Of a stretch of 58,641 bases of DNA, positions 69-25,352 are shown piece by piece; the first letter of the stretch is position 1; every line of letters starts with the position of its first letter. Below the pieces are notes generated by a model. The model was given only the letters and a program-made list of their open reading frames with translations. It was not told where the DNA came from and made no database searches. The position numbers were made by a program, and so were the translations under genes. Origin of the DNA: Thermodesulfovibrionia bacterium (lineage in GTDB: Bacteria; Nitrospirota; Thermodesulfovibrionia; UBA6902); contig CALZMZ010000003.1 of assembly GCA_945788685.1 (NCBI GenBank), positions 1-58,641 of the forward strand, read 5' to 3'.

Positions 69-1316
69 ATGACACCACAATCATCAATAAAGGTTACCCT
101 GGATAAAGAGGAGCGATCACTGGTAAGTAAGGAAAAGACCAGCGAATGGGTCCCCAGTAAACAGTGGAATCCCTTTAACAGCTACAAACTTCTTGCTCAT
201 GTTGAGAGGTGGAAGAAGATCAAAAGGGGTAAACCCATTCCACCACCGGTCCTGATAACAGTTGATCCAACCAATGTCTGTAACCTGAACTGTGAGTGGT
301 GCAATGCAGAATTTGTTCGTAAGGAGAGAAAGGGAAAGCTGTCTGAAAAGATTCTGCTTGAACTTGCTGATTTCCTGCCAAAATGGGGAGAAGGCAGTAA
401 TAAATGGGAACCCGGAGTCCAGGCTGCATGCATTGCAGGAGGAGGGGAACCTCTCTTGAATCCTGCTACATCCAACTTCATAGATGCAACAATAGAAAAT
501 GGAGTAGAAGTTGGGATAGTCACTAATGGCACGTTTATAAATAAGTATATTGATTCTCTTTCCCACTGTACCTGGGTGGGAGTGTCTGTTGATGCAGGAG
601 CTTCAAGCACTTTTAATAAACTGAAAGGTCTTTCCCCCGGCGGAGATAAATTTGAAAGAATTATAGGGAATGTTTCAACACTTGTTGATTACTCAAAGAG
701 ACATAACAACAGACTTGGATACAAGCATCCTGCATATGGAGTCAGCTACAAATATTTGCTTTACAAAGATAACATTTCCGAAGTCTATGAAGCAGCAAAA
801 CTTGCGAAAGAGATTGGATGTAAGAATATTCATTTCAGACCCGCAGGTACGACCTGGGACAAAATAGGTACCGAAGGGGAAGTTGTGTTTACACAGGATG
901 AGGTTTCCGAATTTAGTGAGCAGATTGAAAAGGCCCTGCAGCTGGGGGATGACGCTTTTGGTGTATATGGAGTGACACATAAATTTAACTCTCAGTTCAA
1001 CAGGGCAAACCATTTTCATAAATGCTATGCAGTTTTTATGACAGCTGTTATCGAGCCCCCTGCTGTTGCTGATGGCTCACCTGATTCCATGGTATTGGGC
1101 GTATGCTGCGACAGAAGGGGTGATGAGAAACTTGAGCTGGCAAGAAATATTGAGAATGTCCATGACATACAGAGATTATGGGGGAGTGAAGCCCACTGGG
1201 ATATACATGACAAAGTGATTGTAGAAATGGAATGTCCAAGGTGCACGTATCAGCCTCACAACCAGATTTACGAGCAGGTAATTCTGAATGACAGCATGAC
1301 ACATAAATTTATTTGA
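69..1316 (+). CDS. radical SAM enzyme with C-terminal Cys-rich auxiliary motif
   Basis: 415-aa ORF with the CxxxCxxC motif 'VCNLNCEWCN' and glycine motif 'AGGGEPLL'. The C-terminal 'GVCCD...CPRC' resembles SPASM/twitch auxiliary-cluster cysteines. An SD-like 'gaaggag' lies 8 nt before the ATG. Confidence 0.8.
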   Translation: MTPQSSIKVTLDKEERSLVSKEKTSEWVPSKQWNPFNSYKLLAHVERWKKIKRGKPIPPPVLITVDPTNVCNLNCEWCNAEFVRKERKGKLSEKILLELADFLPKWGEGSNKWEPGVQAACIAGGGEPLLNPATSNFIDATIENGVEVGIVTNGTFINKYIDSLSHCTWVGVSVDAGASSTFNKLKGLSPGGDKFERIIGNVSTLVDYSKRHNNRLGYKHPAYGVSYKYLLYKDNISEVYEAAKLAKEIGCKNIHFRPAGTTWDKIGTEGEVVFTQDEVSEFSEQIEKALQLGDDAFGVYGVTHKFNSQFNRANHFHKCYAVFMTAVIEPPAVADGSPDSMVLGVCCDRRGDEKLELARNIENVHDIQRLWGSEAHWDIHDKVIVEMECPRCTYQPHNQIYEQVILNDSMTHKFI

Positions 1317-1338
1317 AAATACAGGGAGAGGATGGAAC

Positions 1339-2304
1339 ATGATCAGCACATTAACAGAAAAAAAATCAGGGGCTTCCTGGAAAATGAAGTCTGAGGATGC
1401 AGAAAAAATAATATCCAACATAAGAGCTGCAATTAAGAAATACTATGAGGAGAGCAGTCTGACTTATGCTGTATGTGGTATTTCAGGTGGGCTTGACAGT
1501 GCGGTTATTGCAGGATTGCTGAGTAACATAGAAGGGGTAAAACCAATTGGTGTGATCATGCCCTGTGAATCGGATATGGAAGCTGAAGAGATTGCAGGGA
1601 TTGTGCTTAAGCAATATAAAATACCCGCGATACGACTGGACCTGACAGCAGACTACCACCATCTTATGGGACATTACTATACCTCTGATGGCGTGCATGG
1701 CCAGCTGACATCGGTTCTTAATGGTTATGGTGATAAAGAGCTGATCAGGTCTTTTCCTCATTGCAAGCCGAGAGCTGCGGGCAATATAAAAGCAAGGCTG
1801 CGCATGATCACTCTGTATCACATAGCGCAGTTGACAGGCGGCATTGTTATATCCACGGATAATCTTTCCGAGCTTTGTATGGGCTTCTGGACTCTTAATG
1901 GTGATGTTGGGGACCTGTCCCCCATACAGTATGTTTTAAAGGGATTGGAAGAATATACAATTGCAAAAGCACTTGGCGTTCCAAAGGAAGCTCTTGAAGC
2001 TGTTCCGACAGATGGTCTTGATGTAATTCCGGGTGGCAGCGATGAGGACCAGCTTGGTTTACCCTATAAGGACCTTGACAGGGTCATAATCTCATTGCTT
2101 AAGAATAAGCTTGATAAAGAAACAATAGATAAGGACAGCCTGTCTTTGCTGTCAAAATCCCTGTCTGAAGAACTGGGTTATGAACAAAAGCAGGTTGCTC
2201 ATATTGCAAACCAGATGATGAGAACACATTTCAAACGTAACTGGCCCAAAGTCTTTAGTCGTTCTGACATAGGGCTTCCTGATATTGAGGAGATGGAAAT
2301 ATAA
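1339..2304 (+). CDS. nadE: NH3-dependent NAD+ synthetase (PP-loop ATPase)
   Basis: 321-aa ORF with the PP-loop 'GISGGLDSAV'. It carries the NadE-type stretch 'GNIKARLRMITLY...STDNLSELCMGFWTLNGDVGDLSPI' and 'SDEDQLGLPYKDLD'. Confidence 0.85.
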   Translation: MISTLTEKKSGASWKMKSEDAEKIISNIRAAIKKYYEESSLTYAVCGISGGLDSAVIAGLLSNIEGVKPIGVIMPCESDMEAEEIAGIVLKQYKIPAIRLDLTADYHHLMGHYYTSDGVHGQLTSVLNGYGDKELIRSFPHCKPRAAGNIKARLRMITLYHIAQLTGGIVISTDNLSELCMGFWTLNGDVGDLSPIQYVLKGLEEYTIAKALGVPKEALEAVPTDGLDVIPGGSDEDQLGLPYKDLDRVIISLLKNKLDKETIDKDSLSLLSKSLSEELGYEQKQVAHIANQMMRTHFKRNWPKVFSRSDIGLPDIEEMEI

Positions 2305-2325
2305 TATGAAATTTGGAGGTTTTTA

Positions 2326-3675
2326 ATGACAGGGATTTCTGTTATAGGCCTTGGGAAGCTTGGGGCCTGTTCAGCGGCCTGTTTTGCTGCAAAGGGCTAT
2401 GAAGTAATTGGAGTTGATACGAAAACCGATTATGTGAATGCAGTTAACAATGGCAAAGCGCCTGTGTGTGAACCAAGACTTCAGGAGATTATTGATAAAG
2501 CAGGAAACAGATTAAAGGCAACTCATAGCTATAGAGATGCTATGGAAAAATCTGATGTGACGTTTCTTATTGTCCCGACACCAAGCAAGGAAAACGGTCA
2601 CTTTTCAAACAAATACATGTTTAGTGCACTTGAGCCTCTTGCAGAGGCTTTAAAAAACAGCAGTAAGGCATATCACTTATTTGTCATTACTTCAACTGTC
2701 TCTCCCGGGAGCACCGATGAATTACTGATTCCGCTGATAGAAAGATTATCAGGAAGAAAACTGAATGAAGGGTTCGGCGTATGCTATAACCCTGAATTTA
2801 TTGCACTGGGAAGCGTAATAACTCATTTTCTCAATCCTGATATGGTTCTCATAGGTGAAAGCAATGAGTACGCTGGCAGGATTCTGGAAGACATATATCA
2901 CAAAGTGTGTGAGAACTCACCCTATATGGCGAGGATGTCTATTGTCAGTGCAGAGATTACAAAGATAAGTCTTAACTCATATATCACCATGAAAATAAGC
3001 TATGCAAATACCCTTGCAAATATATGCGAGAACATACCGGGTGCTGACATTGATGATATATCAGGAGCACTTGGAGCAGACAGGAGGATTTCGCCGTATT
3101 ACATCAGAGGAGGTCTCGGCTTTGGTGGGCCCTGTTTCCCTCGTGACAACAGGGCCTTTACCGCCTTTGCAGCAAAGAATGGAGTTGACGCCAAGCTGGC
3201 AAAAACTACTGATGAGGTAAATAAATTCCAGGTGGACCATCTAATTGATCTGGTTATGGAGAATGTAAATGGTGCCGAAGATGTTTCTGTATCGATATTG
3301 GGCGCGGCTTACAAACCTGATACCCCTGTTATTGAGGAGTCTCCTGCTATTGCCATCATCAACGAACTGCTTGAGAAAAATATAATGGTTAATGTATATG
3401 ACCCGCTTGCTGCTGAAAATGTAAGAGCCATATATGGAGATAAGGTTTACTGCTCGACTTCTGTCAGGGAATGTATTGAGAACTCATCAATATGCATTGT
3501 TGCAACCCATGCAGATGAATTTAAAGCAATCGATGAGAGTTACTTTATTAACAGTCATACAACAGTAATTGACTGCTGGAGGGTTTTAGATCCATTAAGA
3601 CTTGGAAATAAAGTGAAACATATTGCAATTGGAAAATCGTTTGATAGAGAATGTTTTTCTTTTACTAATGGTTAA
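2326..3675 (+). CDS. nucleotide-sugar dehydrogenase (UDP-glucose/GDP-mannose dehydrogenase family)
   Basis: 449-aa ORF with the N-terminal Rossmann motif 'VIGLGKLGACSAACFAAKGYEVIGVD'. The catalytic-Cys motif 'GFGGPCFPRD' is present. Confidence 0.85.
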   Translation: MTGISVIGLGKLGACSAACFAAKGYEVIGVDTKTDYVNAVNNGKAPVCEPRLQEIIDKAGNRLKATHSYRDAMEKSDVTFLIVPTPSKENGHFSNKYMFSALEPLAEALKNSSKAYHLFVITSTVSPGSTDELLIPLIERLSGRKLNEGFGVCYNPEFIALGSVITHFLNPDMVLIGESNEYAGRILEDIYHKVCENSPYMARMSIVSAEITKISLNSYITMKISYANTLANICENIPGADIDDISGALGADRRISPYYIRGGLGFGGPCFPRDNRAFTAFAAKNGVDAKLAKTTDEVNKFQVDHLIDLVMENVNGAEDVSVSILGAAYKPDTPVIEESPAIAIINELLEKNIMVNVYDPLAAENVRAIYGDKVYCSTSVRECIENSSICIVATHADEFKAIDESYFINSHTTVIDCWRVLDPLRLGNKVKHIAIGKSFDRECFSFTNG

Positions 3676-3678
3676 AGG

Positions 3679-4893
3679 ATGATTAAAGAAATAACTTTAG
3701 GAGAAGAACTGTTCGCGAAAGGAGACATGGAAGGTGCTCGTAATGCATTTGATACTGTGCTGAAGACAAATCCCGGTTGTGCAGATGCGCATAACAACCT
3801 TGGTGTTTTGTACTGGCAGATTGGTGAAATTCAGACGGCCATGGACCATTTCACAGAGGCACTGGAAATCAATCCTGACAACAGGGATGTTGTTGTGAAC
3901 TGTGCTGCTGTTCTCACTTCGCAGGGAGATATCGAGAATGCTGCTGCTCTGTACAAAATGTATCTGAAGTCACATCCTGGGGATATGGAAATACACAGAT
4001 TGCTCTCGGATGTGAAATCAAGAAACAATCAACAGGATGTTGATAACTTAAATGCGAGATCAAATGATTTAATTTCTGTTAGCAATAATCAAAGAGAAGG
4101 TATCAGTAAAAGTACGGAGCTACCCCGACTTTTTGCAGTAATCAGCTGGGGACATGCTGCTACATTCTGGTTAAGCAAAATGCTTAACGCACATCAAGAG
4201 GTGTTCTGTGTTCATGACATAAAACATCAATGGTCCCAGGTAACGAACAGTGAGAAACTAAACGATGATATTTTGTATATGAAAGTTCTGGAGAAGGCAG
4301 GTTTGGGTTGTCGTCTTTCAGGAGATTGTCACGGAGTAAACAGAGAAAGAATTGACGATATTAAGGAAGTTTACGGAGAGAGGTTCAGATCAGTTGTGAT
4401 TGTTCGTCATCCGATTCCCCGCATTTTGTCGTACCTGAGCCATGCTGAAAAGAAAGGAATAGACAATTACAATCTCGATTTTGAGCATATTGAAAATTCA
4501 CTGGATGACAGATTAAAGGGACGGTTAAATACTAAAAAACAGCTTTTTTTTGTACATGTTATGGATTGTGTAAATATAATTAAATATGAAGCGGACCTGG
4601 GCCCTTTATTTACTATGGAGCGGCTTACAAAAGACACGGGAGAGCTAAATAATCTGTTAAGGTATTTATCAAATGGTGAGCTTGAATTTAAGCCTGCCAT
4701 GCTTGAAGGAGCCTTCAGTAAACAGATAAATCCTCATCAAAAGTGCAGCGATCATCATATTTCAGTAAAAGAGATATATGAATCACTTCCTGAATGGCAA
4801 AAAAAGGCCTTTAGCTATCTTTTAAATCCAACGTCAAATCAATTATATCAGGATCTTGGTTATGATTTGTCATTCATACAGACTAATAAGTAG
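3679..4893 (+). CDS. TPR-cassette protein with sulfotransferase-like C-terminal domain (tentative)
   Basis: 404-aa ORF. The N-terminal ~100 aa are TPRs ('AHNNLGVLYWQIGE', 'ALEINPDNRDVVVNC', 'LYKMYLKSHPGD'). The C-terminal half has weak PAPS-binding-like motifs 'ISWGHAATFW' and 'VIVRHPIPRILS'. Confidence 0.5.
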   Translation: MIKEITLGEELFAKGDMEGARNAFDTVLKTNPGCADAHNNLGVLYWQIGEIQTAMDHFTEALEINPDNRDVVVNCAAVLTSQGDIENAAALYKMYLKSHPGDMEIHRLLSDVKSRNNQQDVDNLNARSNDLISVSNNQREGISKSTELPRLFAVISWGHAATFWLSKMLNAHQEVFCVHDIKHQWSQVTNSEKLNDDILYMKVLEKAGLGCRLSGDCHGVNRERIDDIKEVYGERFRSVVIVRHPIPRILSYLSHAEKKGIDNYNLDFEHIENSLDDRLKGRLNTKKQLFFVHVMDCVNIIKYEADLGPLFTMERLTKDTGELNNLLRYLSNGELEFKPAMLEGAFSKQINPHQKCSDHHISVKEIYESLPEWQKKAFSYLLNPTSNQLYQDLGYDLSFIQTNK

Positions 4894-4913: not shown

Positions 4914-5807
4914 ATGACACTGTTAACACCAGACCAGTTAATAGAAGAAATTCTAAAAGAAGTGCCTGAATTGAGGCAATCTCTGTCTGATAAAGAACAT
5001 ATTAAAACGACAACGTTGTTGAGAGAGTATGTTTACAATCACATTGTTTGGAGTAACGACGGCCTGCAGTTACATAACTATTGTGACGGGAATGTTTCGA
5101 ATCTCTCGGTCTCTCAAATAAATTTTTTATTTAACACACGGGAAATTGGCGTTTTATGCGGAGGAGTAGCGACATATTTATCAAAAATATATGAACTGTT
5201 TGGATATCATTCATCGATTTATAATTATGGCATTCCTGACATTTCAACTCACGTAACTACTGTTGTAACAGTACCTGTCAATGGAGTTATGGAAATTGTA
5301 GTTCATGATGCAACGTTTAACCTGAGCTATGTAATACAGAAGACCGGAGATCGCAGTTTTATTAATATAATGAACCTTTTAATTGAGGGCAGAAATAAAG
5401 ATATTGAAATCAAGAAGGGCGACGTTAAAGAAAAAATTATATATTTCAGTGACAACCTTGAGGGTATTGAAAATATAGAGCTCCATAAAAAAGAAAATAT
5501 GCTCTTTGAAGAACCGATTGCAGGTACTACCATGTTGACTAACAGACCTATCTTTTATGCCAGGGGTGATATCGATTTCCATTCAAGTTATGTGAGAAGG
5601 TATGAGTCAAATATTTTAAAGGCTGTTTCTGAAAGATTACAAAAAGATATCAATAATTGTAATGTGCTCGATTTGATGCTGTTCCCGTTAAACTTGCCAT
5701 ATTTTAAACACGAAGGACTGCAGGTATTGATAAATAATCTGGAGAATGATCTTCTGAATTGCAAGTTCATGAAAAATCAGAATGACCTCAAGATTGCGGT
5801 GGTTTAG
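4914..5807 (+). CDS. hypothetical protein
   Basis: 297-aa ORF packed inside the operon. A possible Cys/His/Asp arrangement ('GVLCGG', 'THV', 'VHDAT') hints at a transglutaminase/papain-like fold, but this is speculative. Confidence 0.5.
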   Translation: MTLLTPDQLIEEILKEVPELRQSLSDKEHIKTTTLLREYVYNHIVWSNDGLQLHNYCDGNVSNLSVSQINFLFNTREIGVLCGGVATYLSKIYELFGYHSSIYNYGIPDISTHVTTVVTVPVNGVMEIVVHDATFNLSYVIQKTGDRSFINIMNLLIEGRNKDIEIKKGDVKEKIIYFSDNLEGIENIELHKKENMLFEEPIAGTTMLTNRPIFYARGDIDFHSSYVRRYESNILKAVSERLQKDINNCNVLDLMLFPLNLPYFKHEGLQVLINNLENDLLNCKFMKNQNDLKIAVV

Positions 5808-7491: not shown

Positions 7492-8511
7492 ATGAAAGAA
7501 GTTAAAAAAGTTGAGGTTGAAGATATCAGGGGCTTCAAAAACTATCAAGACTGGCAGCGTTTTTATATGGATATGAACAACGGAGCTTTGATACCGGACA
7601 CTGAAATATGGTCTGACACAGAAATGGTAATGAGCATTAATTCTCTCGGATGTAAAGGAGAAGAAATGGAAAATGGTATTCCGATCGTTGCATTTTTTGG
7701 AGACAGTGCCACTTTCGGTGCAAGTTTTTCAATAGACAGCTGGCCGCGAAATCTTAATATCAGAGGATGTCAGTCCCTCAATGCTGCGGTTGAGGGGTAT
7801 GAAATGGAAAGAGTACTTAATAGATATAATGAAATTTCAGAAAAAGTTAATTTGGCCGGTGTAGTAGTTTATTCCGGTTGGCACAATATTATCTACGGTG
7901 AATCGACCGAGGACTACTGGAGATCGATGCTCGATCAATTCGAAGGCGATCATATACTGGCTTTCTGTACGCTTGCTACATGCCTGACTGAAGAATGCAA
8001 ACATAGGGGTATAGATTCTCTATTATGTTCTGACAGTCCAAGAAAGAATTATGCCAATTATTTCGAATACAACCTGGAAAGCTTGAACAAGAGGTATTTC
8101 AACTTCTGGTGCAACATGGAGCCATCGCTTGAAAATCTTCAAAAGGTTGTAGATGGCGTTCAAAGATATAATAATTTTCTCAAGGAATATTGTTCTGAAA
8201 AAGGCCATGTCCTTATCGACCTTTATTCACAGTTGATTCCTGCTACCTATGAAGATATTCCAAATGATTTTTATGATGTATGCCATCTGCGTCCGGCAGC
8301 TTATCAAAAGATTGGTAAGTATGTGGGAAGCCTGCTGGATATGCCACTGAAAGACTTTCTGAAAAACAGACAGGATAAATATTTTATAGATGTTATTAAT
8401 CCAGTATCCTGTCCCGAAAGATTTGCGTTAACAGAAACACATAATAGTAGAAGGGACAGACAGGGAAATGATAGCGAAGATTTGAGAAGGAATATTTATC
8501 CATTGTGGTAG
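7492..8511 (+). CDS. SGNH/GDSL-family hydrolase (possible glycan O-acyl esterase/transferase)
   Basis: 339-aa ORF with block I 'FFGDSATFG' and block V DxxH as 'YDVCHL'. A strong SD 'agaggagag' lies upstream. Confidence 0.6.
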   Translation: MKEVKKVEVEDIRGFKNYQDWQRFYMDMNNGALIPDTEIWSDTEMVMSINSLGCKGEEMENGIPIVAFFGDSATFGASFSIDSWPRNLNIRGCQSLNAAVEGYEMERVLNRYNEISEKVNLAGVVVYSGWHNIIYGESTEDYWRSMLDQFEGDHILAFCTLATCLTEECKHRGIDSLLCSDSPRKNYANYFEYNLESLNKRYFNFWCNMEPSLENLQKVVDGVQRYNNFLKEYCSEKGHVLIDLYSQLIPATYEDIPNDFYDVCHLRPAAYQKIGKYVGSLLDMPLKDFLKNRQDKYFIDVINPVSCPERFALTETHNSRRDRQGNDSEDLRRNIYPLW

Positions 8512-18509: not shown

Positions 18510-20186
18510 ATGTTAGGTAATGCAGTCAGACATACAACTCTTGTCAAGGCAAAAAACGGTATGCTCTCTATCAGGGTAACCTGTGAAAACGATTCAGTGA
18601 AAACTCTTCACAGCCTCTACGATCCGGAAGCTGAGGCCAGGTCCATGGTCGATACCTTTCGTTTTAATGGAAAAGGGGTCCTTGTTGTCCTGGGTCTGGG
18701 GTTGGGATATCATGTGACAGAACTTACCAGATGCTATCCTGAGGCGAAAATCATAGTTGTTGAAAAGAGCAATGAAATATACAAAAATGCAGTGAGTTAC
18801 GGCCTTGTTCATGATAAAAAGCATGAGGTATTGCAAGGGCTTACTCATGGTGAGGTTATCAGTAAAATAGCTGAAATCCAGATGCGTTCGGGATTTGTCC
18901 CTGTTACAGTTTTTCCACTGCCCTCTGCAGTATCTGCATTCCCTTCGTTTTATGATCCGATACTGACTTCTCTTAAAAATACCGAGTCAGTGAAACTATG
19001 GGACAGATTAAGGTATCGCAAATTTAAAACAGAAACCCTGGCAGTTCTCATGATTGATTCCGGATACTTTCTATTAACTGAAGCTGAAAAAGCGCTGAGA
19101 TCAAACGGTCATAAGGTTGAAAAGGTCCAGGTGCATAAAAGTGATGAGGGAGACAAAGTGATTTCCGGCCTAATTGAAACCATAGTCAAATGTAAGCCGG
19201 ACTTTTTATTAACGGTAAACCATCTTGGACTGGATGAAGAGGGGAGAATTTCAGATTTCCTTAAATCCATTGAGATGCCTGTTGCATCATGGTACGTAGA
19301 CAGCCCCAATCTTATTGTTAAGGCATTTAATAAGAACGTTTCCCCGTACATGGCACTATTCATGTGGGACAGGTCTTATATACATGATATGAAATCCATG
19401 GGATTTGAGACTGTCGAATATCTCCCTCTTGCCACGGATGAAAAAGTGTTCAGACCATTTAACAACAAAAAACACAAAAAGAAACTCTCCAGATATGCCT
19501 GTGATATCAGTTTTGTTGGTAATTCCATGGTTGAGCCTGTTGAAAAATGGATGGAAAAGGTCAATGTCCATGTCCGTCCTGTTGTAGACAGGGTATGCTC
19601 AGAGATGGTGAGATCAGGAAGCATTATGGAAATGCTGAGCGATGATGACAGGAAGGTAATTCATGGTTTGAGCGAACAAGAGAAAATGGACTTTGAAGCA
19701 GCTGTTATCTGGAAGGCGACCCAGCATTACAGGCTCGGGTGCATTGATACAATCAGGAACAGGGGGCTGCGGATTTATGGTGATAATCAGTGGAAGAGCC
19801 TGCTTCATGATAATGCTGAAATATATCCGTCTGTTAATTATTACAAAGAGCTTCCCTATCTTTTTAACGCAACCAGGATCAATTTTAATGCTACCAGCAT
19901 GCAGATGAAGGAGGCGGTCAACCAGAGGGTATTTGATGTACCTGCATGCGGATCATTTTTAATCACAGATGACCAGCAGAGTCTGCATGATCTGTTTGAA
20001 CATGGAAGGGAAGTTATTACATATAGAGATAAAGAAGAAATTCCCGGGTTGGTTGAGTTTTATCTTGACAATCCATCAGCAAGGGACAGGGTGAGCCAGA
20101 GAGCAAGAGACAGGGTGCTGAAAGAGCATACATATAAACACAGAATTGAGAGGGTTATTAAAACCTTAAGGGGGACGTTCTCATGA
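18510..20186 (+). CDS. Maf-N-like / CgeB-like (GT1-type C-terminal domain) putative protein glycosyltransferase
   Basis: 558-aa ORF. The N-terminal 'LHSLYDPEAEARSM...VVLGLGLGYHV' resembles motility-accessory-factor N-termini. The C-terminal 'RVFDVPACGSFLITDD...EVITYRD...RDRVLKEHTYKHR' resembles the CgeB/DUF3880-type domain. Both assignments are from memory. Confidence 0.55.
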   Translation: MLGNAVRHTTLVKAKNGMLSIRVTCENDSVKTLHSLYDPEAEARSMVDTFRFNGKGVLVVLGLGLGYHVTELTRCYPEAKIIVVEKSNEIYKNAVSYGLVHDKKHEVLQGLTHGEVISKIAEIQMRSGFVPVTVFPLPSAVSAFPSFYDPILTSLKNTESVKLWDRLRYRKFKTETLAVLMIDSGYFLLTEAEKALRSNGHKVEKVQVHKSDEGDKVISGLIETIVKCKPDFLLTVNHLGLDEEGRISDFLKSIEMPVASWYVDSPNLIVKAFNKNVSPYMALFMWDRSYIHDMKSMGFETVEYLPLATDEKVFRPFNNKKHKKKLSRYACDISFVGNSMVEPVEKWMEKVNVHVRPVVDRVCSEMVRSGSIMEMLSDDDRKVIHGLSEQEKMDFEAAVIWKATQHYRLGCIDTIRNRGLRIYGDNQWKSLLHDNAEIYPSVNYYKELPYLFNATRINFNATSMQMKEAVNQRVFDVPACGSFLITDDQQSLHDLFEHGREVITYRDKEEIPGLVEFYLDNPSARDRVSQRARDRVLKEHTYKHRIERVIKTLRGTFS

Positions 20187-22417
20187 GAATATCAGTTACG
20201 ATGATAACAATGAATGAGGAGAAGAATATTGAGAGGGCATTAAGCTCATGCAGCTTTGCAGATGAAATAGTTGTAGTTGACGGTGGGAGCACAGACGGTA
20301 CACTTGATATCCTTAAAGCGAATAACAAGGTTACATTGATACAGCACCCCTGGGGCAATCATTTTGGCAGGCAGAGACAGGTCTCTCTTGAACACTGCTC
20401 CGGAGAATGGGTAATAAGGCTTGATGCTGACGAGGCCTTTTCCCTGAAGTTTGAACATTTCATCAGAAATCTGCTTTCATCAACCCCGGACTCTGTCGCG
20501 GGTTATAAAGTGAGACAGTGCAACCTTGTGGGAAATGAAAAGCACTATTCAAAGATATTTGATGATTTCGAGGCCATTCCCAGAATATGGAGAAATACTC
20601 CAGATGTCAGGTGGGAACGACAGATACATGAGACATTAACCGGTATAAAAGGCGAATTGAAGTTATGTGAAGTGTATGTAGTCCATTACGGATTCCTGGA
20701 TAAAAAACGATATTGGCAGAAGGGTAAATATTATTCTCAAGTTCCTGACAGTGGTTTTAATAAGGCTGAACAGCTTTATTTCAGGGAGTATGATATTCAG
20801 CCAAGGCCTCCTGAATCAGTAGTAGCAGAACATGTACCAGAATATGTATCTGAGTCTGAAATGTCAACGTCCGGAGAGGTAGCAATTATCGGGCAATGCA
20901 CCAATACCTTAAAGGGGATTAATTTTAATAAATTATCAGATACATATAATCTGACGATCTGTCTGGATGAAAAAACTGACATTGATAATTCTCATGAGGA
21001 ATGCTGTTTTATTAAATTTCCATATGATCCGGAAGGTTCCGGAAAAATGATCGGGCTTGAGTTTGAACTCATTGACAAGGACATAATCTTTACAGAGGGG
21101 ATCGCATCGCCATGTACCTATCAGGCGATACTGGCAAAACTCAAATTCGGAATTAAGGTAATCACAATAACAACTGACGCCAGCCCTGTTGATAATGCAG
21201 TTGATAATGATACCCGTGCAATGAAAGAAATTGCCGGAAAATATGTAGATGTATTTATCGTTAATTCAGAAAATACCAGAGATGCTCTGCTGTCAGATGG
21301 AGTATCGAATAGCAAGATTGTGTTAATGCCTGTTGGTGAAAAAATTGGTGAGATGGTGATTGAAAACCCTGCATCAGCAATGAAATACAGTAATGTAATC
21401 GAGCTGATCGATCATGTGTATCTATCAACATTTAAAGGCGCAATATCAGAACTTGCAGAATTTGTACATCTGACAGAGAAAAATACATTGAAGCGCATTC
21501 GCTCTGTTTACGCGCAGCAGCTTAAGGAATGGCGGGGGGCTGTTGGAAAAGATGTAACAAAAAGCAGGGTCGCTGCATTCTACAGCGATACTGATTCATA
21601 TCTCTTTGACCTTATTCAATACAATTATGAGAGCAGTACCTACATGAAATGGTCCCAGGATCTGTTTAATCTGCTCGCAGATCTGAATAAAGCGCAGGGC
21701 CATCTGGATATATTGGACTTTGGAGGAGGGATAGGGAGCCAGCTTATTAATGTTTCATCACTTAAAGGCGCAGCGCTCAACTATGCTGATATTCCGGGCA
21801 AGACGTTTGAATTTGCACAGTGGAGATTCAACAGGAGGATGTTGAACATTAACATGATTGATGCCACAAAAGAGGATTATCTTGGCAATATGCTGTTTGA
21901 TGTTGTGTTTGCATTTGATGTCCTGGAACATCTCGTAGATCCGGAGAAATCCGTTGATTATCTTATCAGACATATTAAACCTGATGGTTTTCTGGTTGCC
22001 ATTACATCGTTTGTTGATAATGACGGAGATGCAGGCTGGCATCTGAACGTCGATAAATATACCGATGAAGGATTTTACAGTGTAATAAAGTCACTGGGGA
22101 TGGAGATGATGAATGAGGGGATACCCAGGGTCTTCAGAAAAGACAGGGAGCTTTCTGTTCTGTTATCAGAGCTGAAAACGGCAGAAATTGAGAACAGGCT
22201 TGTTGATGCCAGAACATATATGGAGCAATACCTTGAGATGAGGCCTGTTGATTTACAGATGTTGCTTCGACACGCTGATCTGTGCACAAGACTGCATGAC
22301 AGGGAAGCAACTCAGGCAAGTCTGAACAAGGTCAGGCTGTTTAATCCTGATATGCCCGAGGTCCGGGCAATTGAAGAGTTGATCAATAAGGAGAAGAATG
22401 AAGTTACATCTTGTTAA
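20183..22417 (+). CDS. GT2 glycosyltransferase - methyltransferase - TPR fusion protein
   Basis: 744-aa ORF whose ATG overlaps the upstream stop. The GT2 N-terminus reads 'ISVTMITMNEEKNIERALSS...IVVVDGGSTDGT' with 'RLDADE'. Methyltransferase motif I is 'ILDFGGGIGSQL' with 'FDVVFAFDVLEHL'. The tail is TPR-like. Confidence 0.75.
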   Translation: MRISVTMITMNEEKNIERALSSCSFADEIVVVDGGSTDGTLDILKANNKVTLIQHPWGNHFGRQRQVSLEHCSGEWVIRLDADEAFSLKFEHFIRNLLSSTPDSVAGYKVRQCNLVGNEKHYSKIFDDFEAIPRIWRNTPDVRWERQIHETLTGIKGELKLCEVYVVHYGFLDKKRYWQKGKYYSQVPDSGFNKAEQLYFREYDIQPRPPESVVAEHVPEYVSESEMSTSGEVAIIGQCTNTLKGINFNKLSDTYNLTICLDEKTDIDNSHEECCFIKFPYDPEGSGKMIGLEFELIDKDIIFTEGIASPCTYQAILAKLKFGIKVITITTDASPVDNAVDNDTRAMKEIAGKYVDVFIVNSENTRDALLSDGVSNSKIVLMPVGEKIGEMVIENPASAMKYSNVIELIDHVYLSTFKGAISELAEFVHLTEKNTLKRIRSVYAQQLKEWRGAVGKDVTKSRVAAFYSDTDSYLFDLIQYNYESSTYMKWSQDLFNLLADLNKAQGHLDILDFGGGIGSQLINVSSLKGAALNYADIPGKTFEFAQWRFNRRMLNINMIDATKEDYLGNMLFDVVFAFDVLEHLVDPEKSVDYLIRHIKPDGFLVAITSFVDNDGDAGWHLNVDKYTDEGFYSVIKSLGMEMMNEGIPRVFRKDRELSVLLSELKTAEIENRLVDARTYMEQYLEMRPVDLQMLLRHADLCTRLHDREATQASLNKVRLFNPDMPEVRAIEELINKEKNEVTSC

Positions 22418-25352
22418 TGATCAGGCACGAAGTGCTGACAGGCCAAAGCTCGGTCTTGGTTATATTTCTTCCTATCTGAAAAAATATTGTGATGATATAG
22501 AGATAAGTGTTTCCTTTCAGGGTGATGATACTATCGGTATGATAAAGAGTTTGAAGCCTGATATTGTTGGTCTCACCGCTACAACAGAAACATTTAACAA
22601 TACTGTCAGCATTGCCCGGGACATAAAGGAATCACTGGGGATGCCCCTCCTTATCGGAGGGACCCATATTACCATTCTTCCACAGCATCTGCCGGAATGG
22701 ATTGATGCAGGGGTCATAGGAGAGGGAGAAGAAACCATACGTGAGATTATTTCATCATTCAGGAAATACGGTACAGTTGCTCATGAGAACCTGAATGGCA
22801 TTGTTTTCATGGACGGTCAACATCTGATCAGGACAGATGAGAGAAAACTGATTGATCCCCTGGACAGCATACCATTTCCTGACTGGGACATGCTGGGTCT
22901 GTCAAATACCGGCCCCGGACATATTATAACTTCCAGAGGCTGTACATATAAGTGTGTATTCTGTGCATCTGCAGCCATATGGAAAAAAATCAGGTTCTTC
23001 TCTCCAGAATATGTAGTGAATGAAATAAAGACAATTGTTGAAAAGTTCGGGAGACAGGAGATTCTCATTTATGATGATCTTTTCACTGCGAACAGCAAAA
23101 GAGTGCGGCGTATAAGTGAACTTATATGTCAGGAAGGTCTGGACAGGTCAGTCAGGTTTGAGTGTCTGAGCAATGTCAACCATTTCAGTCAGGAGACAGC
23201 ACAGGACCTCAAAAAGATGAATGTGCACAGAATAAGTTTCGGGATGGAGTCAGGTTCCCCGAAAATGCTCACATATCTCAAAAAGGGGACAGTTACTACA
23301 GAAAAGATCCGGAGCGCTGTTAAAGCGGGAGTCGATAATGGACTGGAAGTCCTCGGGTCGTTTATGATCGGCACTCCGGGAGAGACTGAAGATGATATGA
23401 AAATGACATATGATTTTATTAAGGGTCTTGGATTGACAGAGGTCGGCATAAATGTAGCAACTCCTTTTCCAGGCACAGATTTATGGAACTATGCTGTTGA
23501 AAACAACTATATAAAAGATGCATGGGACGACAGCATATATGCCATGAAAACGATAACTCCGGAAACTATCAAGGACAAACAGCTTCTCTGTTCAGTTGAA
23601 AAAGACAGGTTTATTGAAATATATAAAAAATTGATAGATCTGGACAGCATGCTGATTGACCGCCGTATCAGGGTACGGACATTGAGAGATATCGTCCTGA
23701 ATACATTCGGGAAGGATATGACCCGCTCATCAACATGTAAGGTGCTGGATGTCAGCTGCGAGGACGGTGCCCTGGGTGCTGCTATTAAATCAAGGATTGA
23801 TGCTGAGGTCACAGGCATGAATCCTGATCTGCATTATGCAGCAGACTGTGAGAGAAGGCTGGATAGTGTGATAAGAGGGGACCTGAATGAAGTCGGGGTA
23901 AAATATGCTGGGGGTTATTTTGATGTAATTCTTTTTAATGAACTGATGCCTGATCATGAGACCTTCAAACATTATAATGCCCTTCTCAAACCGGAAGGTG
24001 TTATAGCGGGAACGTTTGCAAACAGGATGCATTTCTCGTACCTTGCTTACTCAGTCTTAGGCATAAACAGGCCTCTGTTTGAAACAACAGATGGCACGCT
24101 GCAGTATATGAAATGGGGTATGCCTGAAAAAGACAGGTTTCCGGGCAATGTGTTGAAAGACCTTGAATCCTTCTTAAAGAAAGAGGATTACAGCATCTCA
24201 ATTTACGAGTTCAAAGGTCTTGATAATATTTTTTCGCAAGAGTTATTACATTATCTGGGATCCTACCTGTCTCATCCTGATGAATTTTATTACGAATCAA
24301 AAGTGATAAGATATTTTTTTATGGCAGAGAATAAAACCGTATCACCTGAATTTCATAAGGAAGATAAAGCCATGGTGCGTCATGATGAGAATTGTGTTCA
24401 GGATAGCAGAAGCGGAAGCATTAAGATGAAAAAGGATAATAAAGAATCTATTGAAAATTTGGCATCTCTTGTGCCTGATCAGGCAAAGAAGATTATGCAC
24501 CCTGGATGCGGAGACGGGGAACTTGGCAAAGAACTTTTAGCCAGGGGTGCAGAAACAGTTATCGGGATTGAACGAGATACTTCAAAGTGTGAAAAAGCCC
24601 GCAGCAGCATTACTGAAGTTATATGTGGAGATATCGAAGAGGCAGATCTTCAATATGATAGTGGGTATTTCGACTGCATCATATGTGATGGTATTCTTGA
24701 ATACCTCAAAGATCCGCTTCATATCTTAAAGAAACTGAAAGACTGCCTGTCTGACACAGGTACGATTGTCGCTGTTATAGCCAATACCGGAACTATTCAC
24801 CATATTAACAAACTGATAGACGGGCAATGGAACTCGGATCATATTGATGGTCCGGATGGTATTCCCCTGAGATTTTATACAAGAAAAGAAATAGAGAATC
24901 TGTTTGATGCATCCGGTTTTGAATTGACCGGATTAAGCCCGGGTGCAATGCATCCTGAGTATCATGAGGTTGATGCTACAGCATCTCATAATGCGACAGC
25001 TGGACGTGTTTCATTGAAAGGACTGACCCCTGAAGAATTGAGAGATATGTATACTGTGAATTATCTGATCAGGGCAGGGAAGAAAGGTGTTGAGTTAGAA
25101 ATTCTCACCAGCCATGTTAACTCATTGTTGCATGATGAAAAGATAAAGGAAGCGGAACAGGCAGTTCAGAAATACCTGGAGGTCCACCTTGCTGACACCA
25201 ATGCACTTTTATTGCACGCTGATATATGTGTAATGCAGGACTTATATGAAAAGGCTCTGGAAAGTATAAATAAGGTGCTTCTTTTTGAACCGGAAAGACA
25301 GGATGCGATTGAGCTGAAAAGCAGGATACAGAAATCCGGAGTCGTTGCCTGA
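22398..25352 (+). CDS. B12-binding (class B) radical SAM enzyme fused to two class I methyltransferase modules and TPR tail
   Basis: 984-aa ORF. The N-terminal cobalamin-binding-type region reads 'DIVGLTATTE...LLIGGTHIT'. The radical SAM motif is 'SRGCTYKCVFCAS'. The two methyltransferase-like motifs are 'VLDVSCEDGALG' and 'IMHPGCGDGELG...FDCIICDGILEYL'. TPRs occupy the C-terminus. Confidence 0.8.
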   Translation: MKLHLVNDQARSADRPKLGLGYISSYLKKYCDDIEISVSFQGDDTIGMIKSLKPDIVGLTATTETFNNTVSIARDIKESLGMPLLIGGTHITILPQHLPEWIDAGVIGEGEETIREIISSFRKYGTVAHENLNGIVFMDGQHLIRTDERKLIDPLDSIPFPDWDMLGLSNTGPGHIITSRGCTYKCVFCASAAIWKKIRFFSPEYVVNEIKTIVEKFGRQEILIYDDLFTANSKRVRRISELICQEGLDRSVRFECLSNVNHFSQETAQDLKKMNVHRISFGMESGSPKMLTYLKKGTVTTEKIRSAVKAGVDNGLEVLGSFMIGTPGETEDDMKMTYDFIKGLGLTEVGINVATPFPGTDLWNYAVENNYIKDAWDDSIYAMKTITPETIKDKQLLCSVEKDRFIEIYKKLIDLDSMLIDRRIRVRTLRDIVLNTFGKDMTRSSTCKVLDVSCEDGALGAAIKSRIDAEVTGMNPDLHYAADCERRLDSVIRGDLNEVGVKYAGGYFDVILFNELMPDHETFKHYNALLKPEGVIAGTFANRMHFSYLAYSVLGINRPLFETTDGTLQYMKWGMPEKDRFPGNVLKDLESFLKKEDYSISIYEFKGLDNIFSQELLHYLGSYLSHPDEFYYESKVIRYFFMAENKTVSPEFHKEDKAMVRHDENCVQDSRSGSIKMKKDNKESIENLASLVPDQAKKIMHPGCGDGELGKELLARGAETVIGIERDTSKCEKARSSITEVICGDIEEADLQYDSGYFDCIICDGILEYLKDPLHILKKLKDCLSDTGTIVAVIANTGTIHHINKLIDGQWNSDHIDGPDGIPLRFYTRKEIENLFDASGFELTGLSPGAMHPEYHEVDATASHNATAGRVSLKGLTPEELRDMYTVNYLIRAGKKGVELEILTSHVNSLLHDEKIKEAEQAVQKYLEVHLADTNALLLHADICVMQDLYEKALESINKVLLFEPERQDAIELKSRIQKSGVVA

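What the first reader, a model, noticed from the sequence alone, without database searches (positions are those of the whole stretch)
69..25352. 25-kb operon of tailoring enzymes in which almost every enzyme is fused to a TPR cassette
Sixteen + strand ORFs are packed with gaps of 0-70 nt or with overlaps at 8511/8513, 13614/13626, 20183/20186 and 22398/22417.

Together they encode:
- four radical-SAM cores (CxxxCxxC at ~280, ~5920, ~11165 and ~12590, plus a B12-class core at ~22940);
- at least five GT-A-like modules;
- at least four class I methyltransferase motifs;
- a sulfotransferase-like domain, an SGNH hydrolase, a nucleotide-sugar dehydrogenase and NadE.

Seven of the proteins carry TPRs. 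Four of them (3679-3995, ~6973-7231, ~11848-12160, ~13282-13600) share one recognisable cassette: 'NNLGV.Y.Q.G...A...F..AL...P.NRD.V.NC......DA..LY..YL...P.D.EI'.

I saw no Wzx/Wzy, no ABC exporter and no polyprenyl-phosphate priming transferase in the window. A TPR fused to a GT is the architecture of protein-directed glycosyltransferases such as OGT and the flagellin glycosyltransferase FlmG.

My inference is a protein-targeted assembly line (flagellin, S-layer or pilin) that builds and modifies a glycan. The shared TPR would act as a common docking or scaffolding module, and the radical-SAM enzymes would carry out the tailoring chemistry.
Basis: partly seen in the sequence, partly recalled or inferred. 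Interest (0 to 1): 0.8.

Follow-up and report, generated by a model that had tools for sequence, protein, structure and literature searches.

The report
Flagellin glycosylation island with TPR-tagged radical-SAM enzymes
This 25-kb gene block is most likely a very elaborate version of the cytoplasmic machinery that puts sugars on the flagellar filament protein, unusual because it holds five radical-SAM enzymes, three of them fused to protein-binding TPR domains.

Summary
The block is real: 15 (not 16) co-directional ORFs at 69-25352. HMMs confirm five radical-SAM cores (one B12-class), three GT2 domains, four class I methyltransferase domains, a nucleotide-sugar dehydrogenase and a NadE-family protein. 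The sulfotransferase call is unconfirmed and the SGNH call is sub-threshold.

Pfam finds TPRs in 4 of the 15 proteins, not in "almost every enzyme". Three (ORF4, ORF10, ORF11) carry one specific 3-TPR-plus-cap cassette. ORF6's TPR is only generic.

The protein-glycosylation inference holds and narrows to flagellin. A 99.93%-identical sibling contig places fliS just upstream of ORF1. Related loci have fliD-fliS-fliT, fliS or fliW-csrA directly upstream. Downstream come a Maf-N-domain glycosyltransferase, a GT9-like protein and motAB. No product has a transmembrane helix, and no flippase, polymerase, ABC exporter or priming transferase was seen here or in five Pfam-annotated homologous loci.

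The cassette sits N-terminally, internally or C-terminally on unrelated enzymes across genomes. It is better conserved than the divergent domains it joins. It probably docks on flagellin as in FlmG and Maf-1, but this is untested.

Verdict: new variant of a known kind, moderately interesting.

The parts
69..1316 (+). ORF1, radical SAM enzyme (415 aa, CNLNCEWC at aa 71), no TPR. It is the first gene after fliS.
   Evidence: PF04055 47.7 bits. It is 69-78% identical in L001, L004 and L006. The C-terminal 25 residues are identical in L001 and L004. fliS is upstream in L041.
1339..2304 (+). ORF2, NadE-family PP-loop ATP pyrophosphatase. It may be a sugar-carboxylate amidoligase (inference).
   Evidence: PF02540 136 bits. 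TIGR00552 143.9 bits against a cutoff of 63.65. The L004 homologue is 63% identical.
2326..3675 (+). ORF3, nucleotide-sugar 6-dehydrogenase.
   Evidence: Three UDPG_MGDP_dh Pfam domains. TIGR03026 346 bits. It is co-conserved with the ORF10-type radical SAM in every related locus examined in detail, L001-L013, L037 and L038.
3679..4893 (+). ORF4, an N-terminal TPR cassette (aa 3-112, nt 3685-4014) fused to an orphan C-terminal domain. That domain has sulfotransferase-like motifs that are not confirmed.
   Evidence: The cassette scores 152 bits against the profile. The C-domain has Sulfotransfer_2 E = 0.15, no PDB sequence hit and no database homologue. Its only relative is L010 6271-7068, at 31% identity. 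In the AF2 model the TPR has pLDDT 77-94 and the rest is below 50.
4914..5807 (+). ORF5, orphan protein of 297 aa.
   Evidence: No Pfam or NCBIfam hit. No homologue in the related loci.
5821..7314 (+). ORF6, radical SAM (CNLKCDYC at aa 32) with a C-terminal 3-TPR unit (aa 373-482, nt 6937-7266) that is only generically TPR-like.
   Evidence: PF04055 42.5 bits plus TPR families. The TPR scores 70 bits in the leave-one-out test, within the generic TPR range.
7492..8511 (+). ORF7, SGNH/GDSL-like hydrolase or acyltransferase (sub-threshold).
   Evidence: Lipase_GDSL_2 30.7 bits against a cutoff of 32.9. GDS and DxxH motifs are visible in the sequence.
8513..9397 (+). ORF8, class I SAM methyltransferase.
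   Evidence: Methyltransf_31, _11 and _25 at 51-58 bits.
9470..10777 (+). ORF9, an uncharacterised conserved family that is always adjacent or fused to the ORF10-type radical SAM. It has a Rossmann-like IIELGRGxGNST motif and two C-terminal ~60-aa helical repeats.
   Evidence: No Pfam hit. The weak NF045824 hit has E = 0.0024. It is 37-74% identical in L001, L004, L006, L008, L011 and L012.
10795..12183 (+). ORF10, radical SAM with an N-terminal Cys-rich (twitch-like) domain and a C-terminal TPR cassette (aa 352-458, nt 11848-12168).
   Evidence: PF04055 56.7 bits. NF033640 152.9 bits, below its cutoff of 170. AF2 pLDDT 93. Foldseek's top hits are BlsE, SuiB, MoaA, viperin and DesII, and the TPR matches HOP TPR1. 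The cassette scores 148 bits.
12220..13626 (+). ORF11, a paralogue of ORF10 (63% identical overall) with a TPR cassette (aa 351-461, nt 13270-13602).
   Evidence: The cassette scores 164 bits.
13614..18464 (+). ORF12, a 1616-aa multi-glycosyltransferase. Its parts are a GT-A-like N-domain (1-345), GT2 (346-660), an unknown region (661-880), a doubtful GT-A (881-1100), GT2 (1101-1400) and a helical, weakly TPR-like tail (1401-1616).
   Evidence: Pfam on the whole protein and on segments. hhalign between the domains. Homologues are 39-59% identical in L001, L004 and L008.
18510..20186 (+). ORF13, a CgeB-like glycosyltransferase (DUF3880 + Glyco_trans_1_2) with a weak Maf N-terminal domain. It is a candidate flagellin-directed transferase.
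   Evidence: PF13524 113.8 bits and PF12996 48.9 bits. PF20157 scores 19.2 bits, below its cutoff. It is ~50% identical in L001, L004 and L008.
20183..22417 (+). ORF14, GT2 + unknown middle region + class I methyltransferase + a ~55-aa helical tail shared with ORF15.
   Evidence: Pfam. The tails are 35% identical with E 2e-9. hhalign of the tail against the cassette gives probability 14%.
22398..25352 (+). ORF15, B12-binding radical SAM (CTYKCVFC at aa 182) + two methyltransferase domains + a helical tail.
   Evidence: PF02310 51 bits, PF04055 93 bits and Methyltransf_23 65 bits. A second, weak methyltransferase lies at aa ~446-540.
27137..28915 (+). The island continues here.
   Evidence: PF20157 36.6 bits against a cutoff of 23.5. 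PF13524 137 bits. A homologue follows the cluster in L004.
28899..30632 (+).
   Evidence: PF01075 87.6 bits. GT9 genes also occur in L006 and next to the TPR-only protein P0244.

Best explanation
The block is the main part of a flagellin glycosylation island. This is a wholly cytoplasmic, soluble pathway that builds an unusual, heavily tailored glycan on flagellin before export. The island runs from upstream of fliS (off the window's left end) to about 30632.

Likely flow; every step below is inferred:
1. ORF3 oxidises a nucleotide sugar to the uronic acid. ORF1 (radical SAM) and ORF2 (NadE-family amidoligase) modify it further.
2. The Maf-N-domain/CgeB-like transferases (ORF13 and 27137-28915) and the multi-GT proteins (ORF12, ORF14, the GT9-like protein) attach and extend the glycan.
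3. Methyltransferases (ORF8, ORF14, ORF15), the B12 radical-SAM enzyme (ORF15), the SGNH-like enzyme (ORF7), and the TPR-tagged enzymes (ORF4, ORF10, ORF11 and perhaps ORF6) tailor it.

The shared 3-TPR-plus-capping-helix cassette is a portable peptide- or protein-binding domain. It most likely tethers these enzymes to flagellin, or to a flagellin-bound complex, as the TPR domains of FlmG and Maf-1 do. On that reading the radical chemistry acts on the protein-linked glycan rather than on free nucleotide sugars.

Shown: gene content, domain assignments, flagellar context, absence of membrane or export components, and the distinctness and portability of the cassette.
Inferred: the target protein, the order of steps, the chemistry, and what the TPR binds.
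For: Flagellar context:
- L041 (GCA_945786975.1) is 99.93% identical to the window over 14.9 kb. It carries fliS about 390 nt upstream of ORF1.
- L001/L009 (a Nitrospiraceae MAG) has fliD-fliS-fliT directly upstream of the ORF1 homologue.
- L004/L005 has fliS directly upstream, with near-complete synteny to the window.
- L038 has fliW-csrA directly upstream of dehydrogenase + radical SAM + a 2101-aa multi-GT-TPR protein.
- Downstream in the window are a Maf_flag10_N glycosyltransferase, a GT9-like protein, a response regulator, a PilZ protein and motAB.

Cytoplasmic pathway:
- None of the 15 products, the Maf-N glycosyltransferase or the GT9-like protein has a predicted transmembrane helix.
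- No Wzx, Wzy, ABC exporter or priming transferase family was found in the window or in L001, L004, L006, L037 or L038.

The cassette:
- It forms a distinct subfamily: 115-165 bits for members against <=84 bits for generic TPR proteins.
- It occurs N-terminally (ORF4), C-terminally (ORF10, ORF11, the L008 895-aa protein) and internally (the L004 1117-aa B12-rSAM-TPR-MT protein).
- The L008 895-aa protein shares 46-49% cassette identity with the ORF10-type proteins but only 27-30% catalytic-domain identity.
- Its model matches the peptide-binding HOP TPR1 domain (target-normalised TM-score 0.86).

Precedent: the TPR domains of FlmG and Maf-1 bind flagellin and are required for its glycosylation (bioRxiv 10.1101/2023.12.03.569772, which also cites the FlmG work, eLife 2020, PMC7591256).
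Against: - No flagellin gene is visible in the window or in any related locus within +/-10 kb.
- The more distant, TPR-less versions of the core module (ORF10-type radical SAM + ORF9 + ORF12 N-domain + dehydrogenase) show no flagellar neighbours in L006, L011 and L037. In alphaproteobacterial L011 the module follows tol-pal/ftsH/folP. The chemistry module is therefore not exclusive to flagella.
- No canonical flagellin glycosyltransferase is present. There is no MAF_flag10/DUF115 domain and no FlmG-type TPR-GT-B protein.
- What the TPR binds was not tested.
- ORF6's TPR is not a clear cassette member.
- The radical-SAM folds resemble both nucleoside/sugar-acting enzymes (BlsE, viperin, DesII) and peptide-acting ones (SuiB, CteB), so the substrate class is open.
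Confidence: 0.75

Rival explanations
1. Same flagellin glycosylation island, but the TPR cassette does not bind flagellin. Instead it assembles the enzymes into a multi-enzyme complex (metabolon), or binds a chaperone or adaptor such as FliS or a tail motif of a partner enzyme. The radical-SAM enzymes then act on nucleotide-sugar or enzyme-bound intermediates.
For: - The cassette has the 3-TPR-plus-cap architecture of HOP TPR1, which recognises short C-terminal peptides of partner proteins.
- Several cluster proteins have conserved helical tails: ORF14, ORF15 and the protein upstream of fliS in L041.
- TPR-only proteins made of tandem cassette-like units occur next to glycosyltransferases elsewhere (P0244/L040, and the TPR-only proteins of L006).
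- TPR-less orthologues of the ORF10-type radical SAM exist, so docking is dispensable for catalysis.
Against: - The only experimentally characterised TPRs in flagellin glycosylation bind flagellin itself.
- No conserved partner tail motif was found. The tail of ORF2 is only loosely conserved.
Confidence: 0.25
2. It is a polysaccharide (O-antigen, capsule or EPS) or other non-protein glycoconjugate cluster that merely lies next to flagellar genes.
For: - It contains GT2, GT9-like and nucleotide-sugar dehydrogenase genes, and kdsA/kdsD/kdsC lie 19 kb downstream.
- The distant TPR-less core modules are not near flagellar genes.
Against: - None of the 15 products, the Maf-N transferase or the GT9-like protein has a transmembrane helix.
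- No flippase, polymerase, ABC exporter or polyprenyl-phosphate priming transferase was found here or in five Pfam-annotated homologous loci.
- fliS, fliD or fliW adjacency recurs in four independent lineages.
- The Maf N-terminal domain is present.
Confidence: 0.07
3. It is a RiPP-like or direct protein-modification system. The TPR-tagged radical-SAM enzymes modify amino-acid residues of a peptide or of flagellin itself (cross-links, C-methylation, epimerisation), and the TPR acts as the substrate-recognition element.
For: - Foldseek and NCBIfam hits include peptide-modifying radical-SAM maturases (SuiB, CteB, anSME, PapB, HxsC).
- The ORF14 N-terminus weakly resembles the SunS peptide S-glycosyltransferase (E 1.4e-11).
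- TPR proteins accompany some RiPP radical-SAM systems (HaaT hit).
Against: - No precursor peptide, leader peptidase or exporter gene is evident.
- The ORF10-type radical SAM is strictly co-conserved with a nucleotide-sugar dehydrogenase and GT-A domains, and is sometimes fused to GT2 (P0029, P0032, P0036, P0037).
- The best structural match is BlsE, which acts on a glucuronide.
Confidence: 0.08

Closest known systems
Flagellin glycosylation islands (Campylobacter, Aeromonas, Pseudomonas, Shewanella, Clostridium) with Maf-type transferases
   Same: - Position in the flagellar gene neighbourhood (fliS, fliD).
- A soluble cytoplasmic pathway.
- Sugar-nucleotide synthesis genes together with transferases and methyltransferases.
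- A PP-loop amidoligase-type enzyme, comparable from my own knowledge to PseA/WbpG.
- The Maf N-terminal domain, present in 27137-28915.
   Different: - No MAF_flag10/DUF115 catalytic domain.
- No nonulosonic-acid (Pse/Leg) synthesis genes were seen.
- The Maf-N domain is instead joined to a CgeB-like Glyco_trans_1_2 domain.
- Five radical-SAM enzymes are present. Two full-text searches of the held library turned up no paper describing radical SAM in a flagellin glycosylation island.
FlmG (Caulobacter, Brevundimonas) and Maf-1 (Shewanella): flagellin glycosyltransferases with a flagellin-binding TPR domain
   Same: A TPR domain is fused, N- or C-terminally, to an enzyme of a flagellin glycosylation pathway. 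[quoted passage not shown]
   Different: Here the cassette is a short 3-TPR unit fused to radical-SAM enzymes and an orphan domain, not to the glycosyltransferases. In related loci it is fused to a B12-rSAM/methyltransferase. Binding to flagellin is untested.
BlsE (blasticidin S pathway), DesII and viperin: radical-SAM enzymes acting on sugar or nucleoside substrates
   Same: - BlsE is the best structural match of the ORF10 model (7vob, E 5.7e-7). DesII and viperin also match.
- BlsE decarboxylates a glucuronide after glycosyl transfer (my own knowledge). This parallels the strict co-occurrence here of a sugar 6-dehydrogenase, GT-A domains and the radical SAM.
   Different: - Only 13-21% identity and low query-normalised TM-scores (0.30-0.37).
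- ORF10 has an extra N-terminal Cys-rich domain and a TPR cassette.
- No functional residues were compared.
- Peptide-acting radical-SAM enzymes match about as well.
OGT / SPINDLY (eukaryotic TPR-GT41 protein O-glycosyltransferases)
   Same: The cassette's closest natural PDB sequence matches are the OGT and SPINDLY TPRs. The general logic is the same: a TPR selects the protein substrate.
   Different: - There is no GT41 domain.
- OGT has a long superhelix of many repeats, whereas this is a 3-repeat capped unit.
- The similarity largely reflects closeness to the TPR consensus.

Membership tests
Flagellin glycosylation island | Located within or next to the flagellar filament genes (flagellin, fliD, fliS) | tested here: met
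   fliS lies about 390 nt upstream of ORF1 in the 99.93%-identical contig L041. fliD-fliS-fliT, fliS or fliW-csrA lie upstream in L001, L004 and L038. No flagellin gene itself was seen.
Flagellin glycosylation island | Encodes a cytoplasmic protein glycosyltransferase of a flagellin-specific class (Maf, FlmG, Fgt) | tested here: inconclusive
   The Maf_flag10_N domain is present in 27137-28915 (36.6 bits against a cutoff of 23.5) and is sub-threshold in ORF13. The catalytic part is DUF3880 + Glyco_trans_1_2, not MAF_flag10.
Flagellin glycosylation island | Flagellin is actually glycosylated in a manner dependent on these genes | not testable with these tools
   This needs mass spectrometry and genetics. 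The organism is known only from metagenome assemblies.
Maf (motility-associated factor) glycosyltransferases | MAF_flag10 / DUF115 catalytic domain (PF01973) | tested here: not met
   No PF01973 hit at E <= 0.001 in ORF13 or 27137-28915. Only the N-terminal domain PF20157 was found.
FlmG-class flagellin glycosyltransferases | An N-terminal TPR domain and a C-terminal GT-B domain in one polypeptide | tested here: not met
   The TPR cassettes are on ORF4, ORF6, ORF10 and ORF11 (an orphan domain and radical-SAM enzymes). The GT-B-like ORF13 has no TPR.
Radical SAM superfamily | CxxxCxxC cluster motif and a PF04055 score above the gathering cutoff | tested here: met
   ORF1, ORF6, ORF10, ORF11 and ORF15 score 42.5-93.1 bits against a cutoff of 29.5. 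The motifs are at aa 71, 32, 124, 124 and 182.
Class B (cobalamin-dependent) radical SAM enzymes | An N-terminal B12-binding domain followed by the radical-SAM core | tested here: met
   ORF15 has PF02310 at 51.2 bits (aa 14-117) and PF04055 at 93.1 bits. No equivalog model reaches its cutoff, so the reaction is unknown.
NF033640 N-terminal twitch-domain radical SAM subfamily | Score at or above the curated cutoff (170 bits) | tested here: not met
   ORF10 scores 152.9 bits over profile positions 5-300 of 398. It is related to the subfamily but below the cutoff.
Specific 3-TPR 'island cassette' (defined here) | Per-domain score clearly above generic TPR proteins against a profile that does not include the sequence | tested here: met
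   Met for ORF4, ORF10 and ORF11, but those three were in the training set (148-165 bits). Five true hold-outs (P0005, P0006, P0008, P0009, P0013) score 115-157 bits, against <=84 bits for generic TPR proteins. Not met for ORF6, which scores 70 bits when left out.
Sulfotransferases | HMM or structural match to a sulfotransferase fold with the PAPS-binding motifs | tested here: inconclusive
   - Sulfotransfer_2 E = 0.15.
- No PDB sequence hit.
- hhalign against a Sulfotransfer_3 domain gives probability 1%.
- The AF2 single-sequence model has pLDDT < 50.
- Only motif-level resemblance remains (WGxxxT/SxWL and VRxPxxRxxS).
SGNH/GDSL hydrolases | Pfam score above the gathering cutoff, plus GDS and DxxH blocks | tested here: inconclusive
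   ORF7 scores 30.7 bits against a cutoff of 32.9. FFGDSATFG and DVCH motifs are present in the sequence.
NAD+ synthetase (NadE) | Score above the TIGR00552 cutoff | tested here: met
   143.9 bits against a cutoff of 63.65. Whether it makes NAD or amidates a sugar acid was not testable.

The most novel reading that the evidence does not exclude
A dedicated 3-TPR cassette tethers radical-SAM enzymes to flagellin. Other tailoring enzymes carry it too: an orphan, possibly sulfotransferase-like domain here, and a B12-rSAM/methyltransferase in a relative. Radical chemistry, for example BlsE-like decarboxylation or another C-H functionalisation of a uronic-acid residue, would then be carried out on a glycan already attached to a protein. 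That would be the first radical-SAM tailoring of a protein-linked glycan and a new, portable 'substrate-docking tag' logic for glycan tailoring.
Probability: 0.35. Interest if true: 0.8.

Novelty: new variant of a known kind. Interest (0 to 1): 0.6.

Why it matters
Flagellin glycosylation is widespread and often essential for filament assembly. The known systems are chemically narrow, mostly nonulosonic acids put on by Maf or FlmG.

This island would show three things:
- Uncultured Nitrospirota/Desulfobacterota-like bacteria build far more elaborate flagellar glycans.
- It would bring radical-SAM and cobalamin-dependent chemistry into protein glycan tailoring.
- It would provide a compact, portable TPR tag as a natural way of recruiting different tailoring enzymes to one protein substrate. 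That is directly testable with two-hybrid, pull-down or co-folding experiments, and could be useful for glyco-engineering.

It also defines several families with no assigned function that are now tied to a biological context:
- the ORF9 family;
- the ORF1 radical SAM, with a C-terminus that barely varies among three loci;
- the ORF10-type N-twitch radical SAM, about 40 strong matches among 5.8 billion sequences.

Tried and rejected
1. Cassette profile against the 5.8-billion-protein index. It returned only short generic TPR proteins and not even the window's own proteins, so it says nothing about the cassette's distribution.
2. Cassette profile against 1.84 billion representatives. The ranking was swamped by giant multi-TPR proteins (487,736 hits at E <= 0.001). 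Its only use was that re-scoring per domain showed no generic protein above 105 bits. It also revealed tandem-cassette proteins: P0208 (Sulfotransfer_3 + TPR), P0244, P0197 and P0226.
3. The ORF4 C-domain. A homologue search found only the protein itself, there was no PDB sequence hit, the single-sequence AF2 model failed, and BLAST and hhalign against a genuine Sulfotransfer_3 domain were not significant. The sulfotransferase call could be neither confirmed nor excluded.
4. ORF9 against Methyltransf_24 proteins of related loci by hhalign: not significant.
5. PDB sequence searches for ORF1, ORF9 and ORF13: nothing useful.
6. A conserved C-terminal peptide that might be the TPR ligand. ORF2's acidic tail (DIEEMEI) is only loosely conserved (DIQDIKI in L004), so I dropped the idea.
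7. Organism identification. The genome-collection scan did not contain the window's own species. The nearest relatives are a Deltaproteobacteria MAG (59% identity) and a Nitrospiraceae MAG (55%).
8. Literature. No paper in the held library describes radical SAM enzymes in a flagellin glycosylation island, or links CgeB or DUF3880 to flagellin.
9. Terminator and promoter scans around 24800-27300 gave no more hits than shuffled sequence.

Full report
**1. What is in the sequence**

A 16th could only be a 56-69 aa ORF in the 177-nt gap 7314-7492. A 56-aa gene is called there in a sibling assembly.

The remaining gaps are 1-72 nt. The true overlaps are at 13614/13626, 20183/20186 and 22398/22417. 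The pair '8511/8513' is a 1-nt gap.

**2. Domain assignments**

Five radical-SAM cores are confirmed by motif and by Pfam: ORF1, ORF6, ORF10, ORF11 and ORF15. ORF15 also has a B12-binding domain.

ORF3 is a nucleotide-sugar dehydrogenase (TIGR03026, 346 bits). ORF2 is a NadE-family protein (TIGR00552, 144 bits).

Methyltransferase domains are found in ORF8, ORF14 and ORF15. ORF15 has one strong domain and one weak one.

GT2 domains are confirmed in ORF12 at aa 346-660 and 1101-1400, and at the ORF14 N-terminus. The conserved N-domain of ORF12 (aa 1-345) is GT-A-like only by profile-profile comparison (probability 75-85%). The region at aa 881-1100 is doubtful at 15%.

ORF13 is a CgeB-like DUF3880 + Glyco_trans_1_2 protein. 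ORF7 is a sub-threshold GDSL match, 30.7 bits against a cutoff of 32.9. ORF5 and ORF9 have no family.

The 'sulfotransferase-like' C-domain of ORF4 could not be confirmed by any method.

**3. The TPR claim**

ORF12 has only a sub-threshold TPR_8 hit in its helical tail.

ORF14 and ORF15 share a different ~55-aa helical tail (35% identity, E 2e-9). That tail is not demonstrably TPR: hhalign against the cassette gives probability 14%. So 'almost every enzyme' and 'seven proteins' are overstated.

The four TPR segments align ungapped and in register at 28-51% identity. The segments are 25-27% identical to the designed consensus protein CTPR3, and their best PDB matches are designed consensus TPRs and OGT.

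To separate 'same cassette' from 'just TPR' I built a profile from the cassettes and scored individual domains:
- ORF4, ORF10, ORF11 and their relatives, including five sequences not used for training, score 115-165 bits.
- The best ordinary TPR proteins returned by a 5.8-billion-protein search score <=84 bits.
- The best single domains among the top 150 of 1.84 billion representatives score <=105 bits. Those belong to proteins made of tandem cassette-like units.
- With ORF6 left out of the profile, it scores only 70 bits.

So three of the four proteins carry one specific cassette, marked by GE.LF..GD..GA, NNxGV..WQ.G and NRDTVLNCG. ORF6 carries a generic 3-TPR unit.

**4. The cassette is portable and under its own constraint**

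In related loci the same cassette sits at three different positions:
- at the C-terminus of ORF10-type radical-SAM enzymes;
- in the middle of an 1117-aa B12-rSAM-TPR-methyltransferase protein (L004);
- at the end of an 895-aa protein whose catalytic part is only 27-30% identical to ORF10 (L008).

Orthologous pairs keep their own cassettes: ORF10 and L004_463 are 52% identical in the cassette, and ORF11 and L004_468 are 56%. Across unrelated catalytic partners, cassette identity stays at 37-49%. A common ligand would explain this pattern.

The AF2 model of ORF10 has pLDDT 93. It shows three TPRs plus a capping helix, and superposes on the peptide-binding HOP TPR1 domain with a target-normalised TM-score of 0.86.

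**5. Context**

The window begins at the first gene of the block, so the decisive neighbour is off its left end. A second assembly, L041 (GCA_945786975.1, CALZGL010000366.1), is 99.93% identical to the window over 14,893 nt and extends 1,497 nt further upstream. It carries fliS (Pfam FliS, 49.5% identical to the L001 FliS). Before fliS it carries the end of another enzyme with an ORF14/15-type tail.

Related loci show similar neighbours:
- The closest syntenic locus, L004/L005, has fliS directly upstream of the ORF1 homologue. ORF1 is 78% identical, ORF3 75%, ORF9 74%, ORF10 70%, ORF12 59% and ORF13 51%.
- A Nitrospiraceae MAG, L001/L009, has fliD-fliS-fliT directly upstream.
- L038 has fliW-csrA directly upstream of dehydrogenase + radical SAM + FkbM methyltransferase + a 2101-aa multi-GT-TPR protein.

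Downstream in the window the island continues with a Maf_flag10_N + CgeB-like glycosyltransferase (27137-28915) and a GT9-like protein (28899-30632). These are followed by a response regulator, a PilZ protein and motAB.

None of the 15 products, the Maf-N transferase or the GT9-like protein has a predicted transmembrane helix. No Wzx, Wzy, ABC-exporter or priming-transferase family appears in the window or in the five homologous loci with Pfam tables.

**6. Caveats**

No flagellin gene is visible in any locus.

A TPR-less core module also occurs without visible flagellar neighbours. The module is an ORF10-type radical SAM, ORF9, the ORF12 N-domain and the dehydrogenase. Examples are L006, L037 and the alphaproteobacterial L011, where it follows tol-pal/tilS/ftsH/folP. 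The chemistry module is therefore older and more general than its flagellar use.

In this small sample the cassette-bearing versions are the ones seen next to flagellar genes.

There is no canonical Maf (DUF115) or FlmG protein, so I do not file the system under either family.

**7. Mechanism (inferred)**

ORF3 makes a uronic-acid nucleotide sugar. ORF1 and ORF2 sit with it and lack TPRs, so they probably act at the nucleotide-sugar stage. ORF1 is 69-78% identical across the three loci, and its C-terminal 25 residues are identical in L001 and L004. ORF2 may amidate the carboxylate, much as PP-loop amidotransferases do in other flagellin sugar pathways (my own knowledge).

The Maf-N/CgeB-like transferases and the multi-GT proteins would attach and extend the glycan. 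The methyltransferases, the B12 radical SAM, the SGNH-like enzyme and the TPR-tagged enzymes would tailor it.

The best structural match of ORF10 is BlsE. BlsE decarboxylates a glucuronide after glycosyl transfer. The ORF10 family always co-occurs with a sugar 6-dehydrogenase and GT-A domains, and is sometimes fused to GT2. This suggests it acts on a uronic-acid residue that has already been transferred.

A flagellin-binding TPR, as shown experimentally for FlmG and Maf-1, would then make sense on exactly these enzymes. Peptide-acting radical-SAM folds match about as well as BlsE, so direct modification of flagellin residues is not excluded.

**8. Novelty**

Flagellin glycosylation islands and TPR-guided flagellin glycosyltransferases are known. 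Four things are new here:
- the content, with five radical-SAM enzymes including a cobalamin-dependent one;
- the CgeB-like transferases joined to a Maf N-domain;
- several orphan families;
- a dedicated short TPR cassette fused to tailoring enzymes rather than to the transferase.

The ORF10 family is rare, with about 40 strong matches in 5.8 billion sequences. Full-text searches of the held library found no paper that describes radical SAM enzymes in a flagellin glycosylation island.

I rate it a new variant of a known kind, with interest 0.6. The more novel reading, radical-SAM tailoring of a protein-bound glycan through a portable docking tag, has roughly a one-in-three chance and would be of high interest.

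Noticed in passing
L041 3-506 and 812-1177 (upstream of window position 1): The sibling contig shows the island continuing upstream of fliS. The C-terminal end of another protein there carries a helical tail similar to those of ORF14 and ORF15 (…KVLIFDPMNRRAHVLIDRI…). fliS is therefore embedded inside the glycosylation island.
   Followed up: partly
window 25599-26477 (- strand) and 26478-27136: A 292-aa minus-strand ORF with no Pfam or NCBIfam match, plus a 660-nt gap, interrupts the + strand island between ORF15 and the Maf-N glycosyltransferase. GC skew drops to ~0 in 26001-28000. It may be a spurious ORF or an insertion.
   Followed up: no
window 31104-37526 and 39336-39701: There are two motAB pairs: 32397-33960 on the + strand and 35656-37526 on the - strand. 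With them are a response regulator (31104-31808), a PilZ protein directly before motA (31853-32458), a PAS histidine kinase (34151-35332) and a second small PilZ protein (39336-39701). This suggests dual stators with c-di-GMP control.
   Followed up: no
window 9470-10777; L001 5495-8275; L004 7555-9957: The ORF9 family has no Pfam model but has strongly conserved motifs: AYWNQR, IIELGRGxGNST, WDAHG, MHDxSD, ADHS and HWxWFTLN. It is always adjacent to an ORF10-type radical SAM. It is fused to a radical SAM in L004, and to an ORF12-N-domain/FkbM protein in L001.
   Followed up: partly
window 69-1316 (ORF1 C-terminus): The last 25 residues of ORF1 (RCTYQPHNQIYEQVILNDSMTHKFI) are identical in a Nitrospiraceae MAG (L001) and a JGI metagenome contig (L004). 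They differ at two positions in GCA_003575185.1 (L006). That is unusually strong conservation for a tail.
   Followed up: no
L039 3074-5164 (P0208) and L040 2317-3561 (P0244): Proteins made of tandem cassette-like 3-TPR units occur elsewhere. One is fused to a Sulfotransfer_3 domain next to a GT25 gene. Another is a TPR-only protein next to a GT9-GT4 fusion. The cassette type may be a more general partner of protein- or glycan-modifying enzymes.
   Followed up: partly
window 38164-38607: A SWIB/MDM2-domain protein (147 aa, 99.7 bits), an uncommon domain in bacteria. It overlaps a minus-strand ORF at 38019-38582.
   Followed up: no
window 51410-53578 and 54539-57604: Two large proteins of unknown role: a 722-aa protein with no Pfam match on the + strand, and a 1021-aa protein on the - strand whose only hit is a weak, sub-threshold patatin-like N-terminal match (27.3 bits against a cutoff of 27.7).
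   Followed up: no
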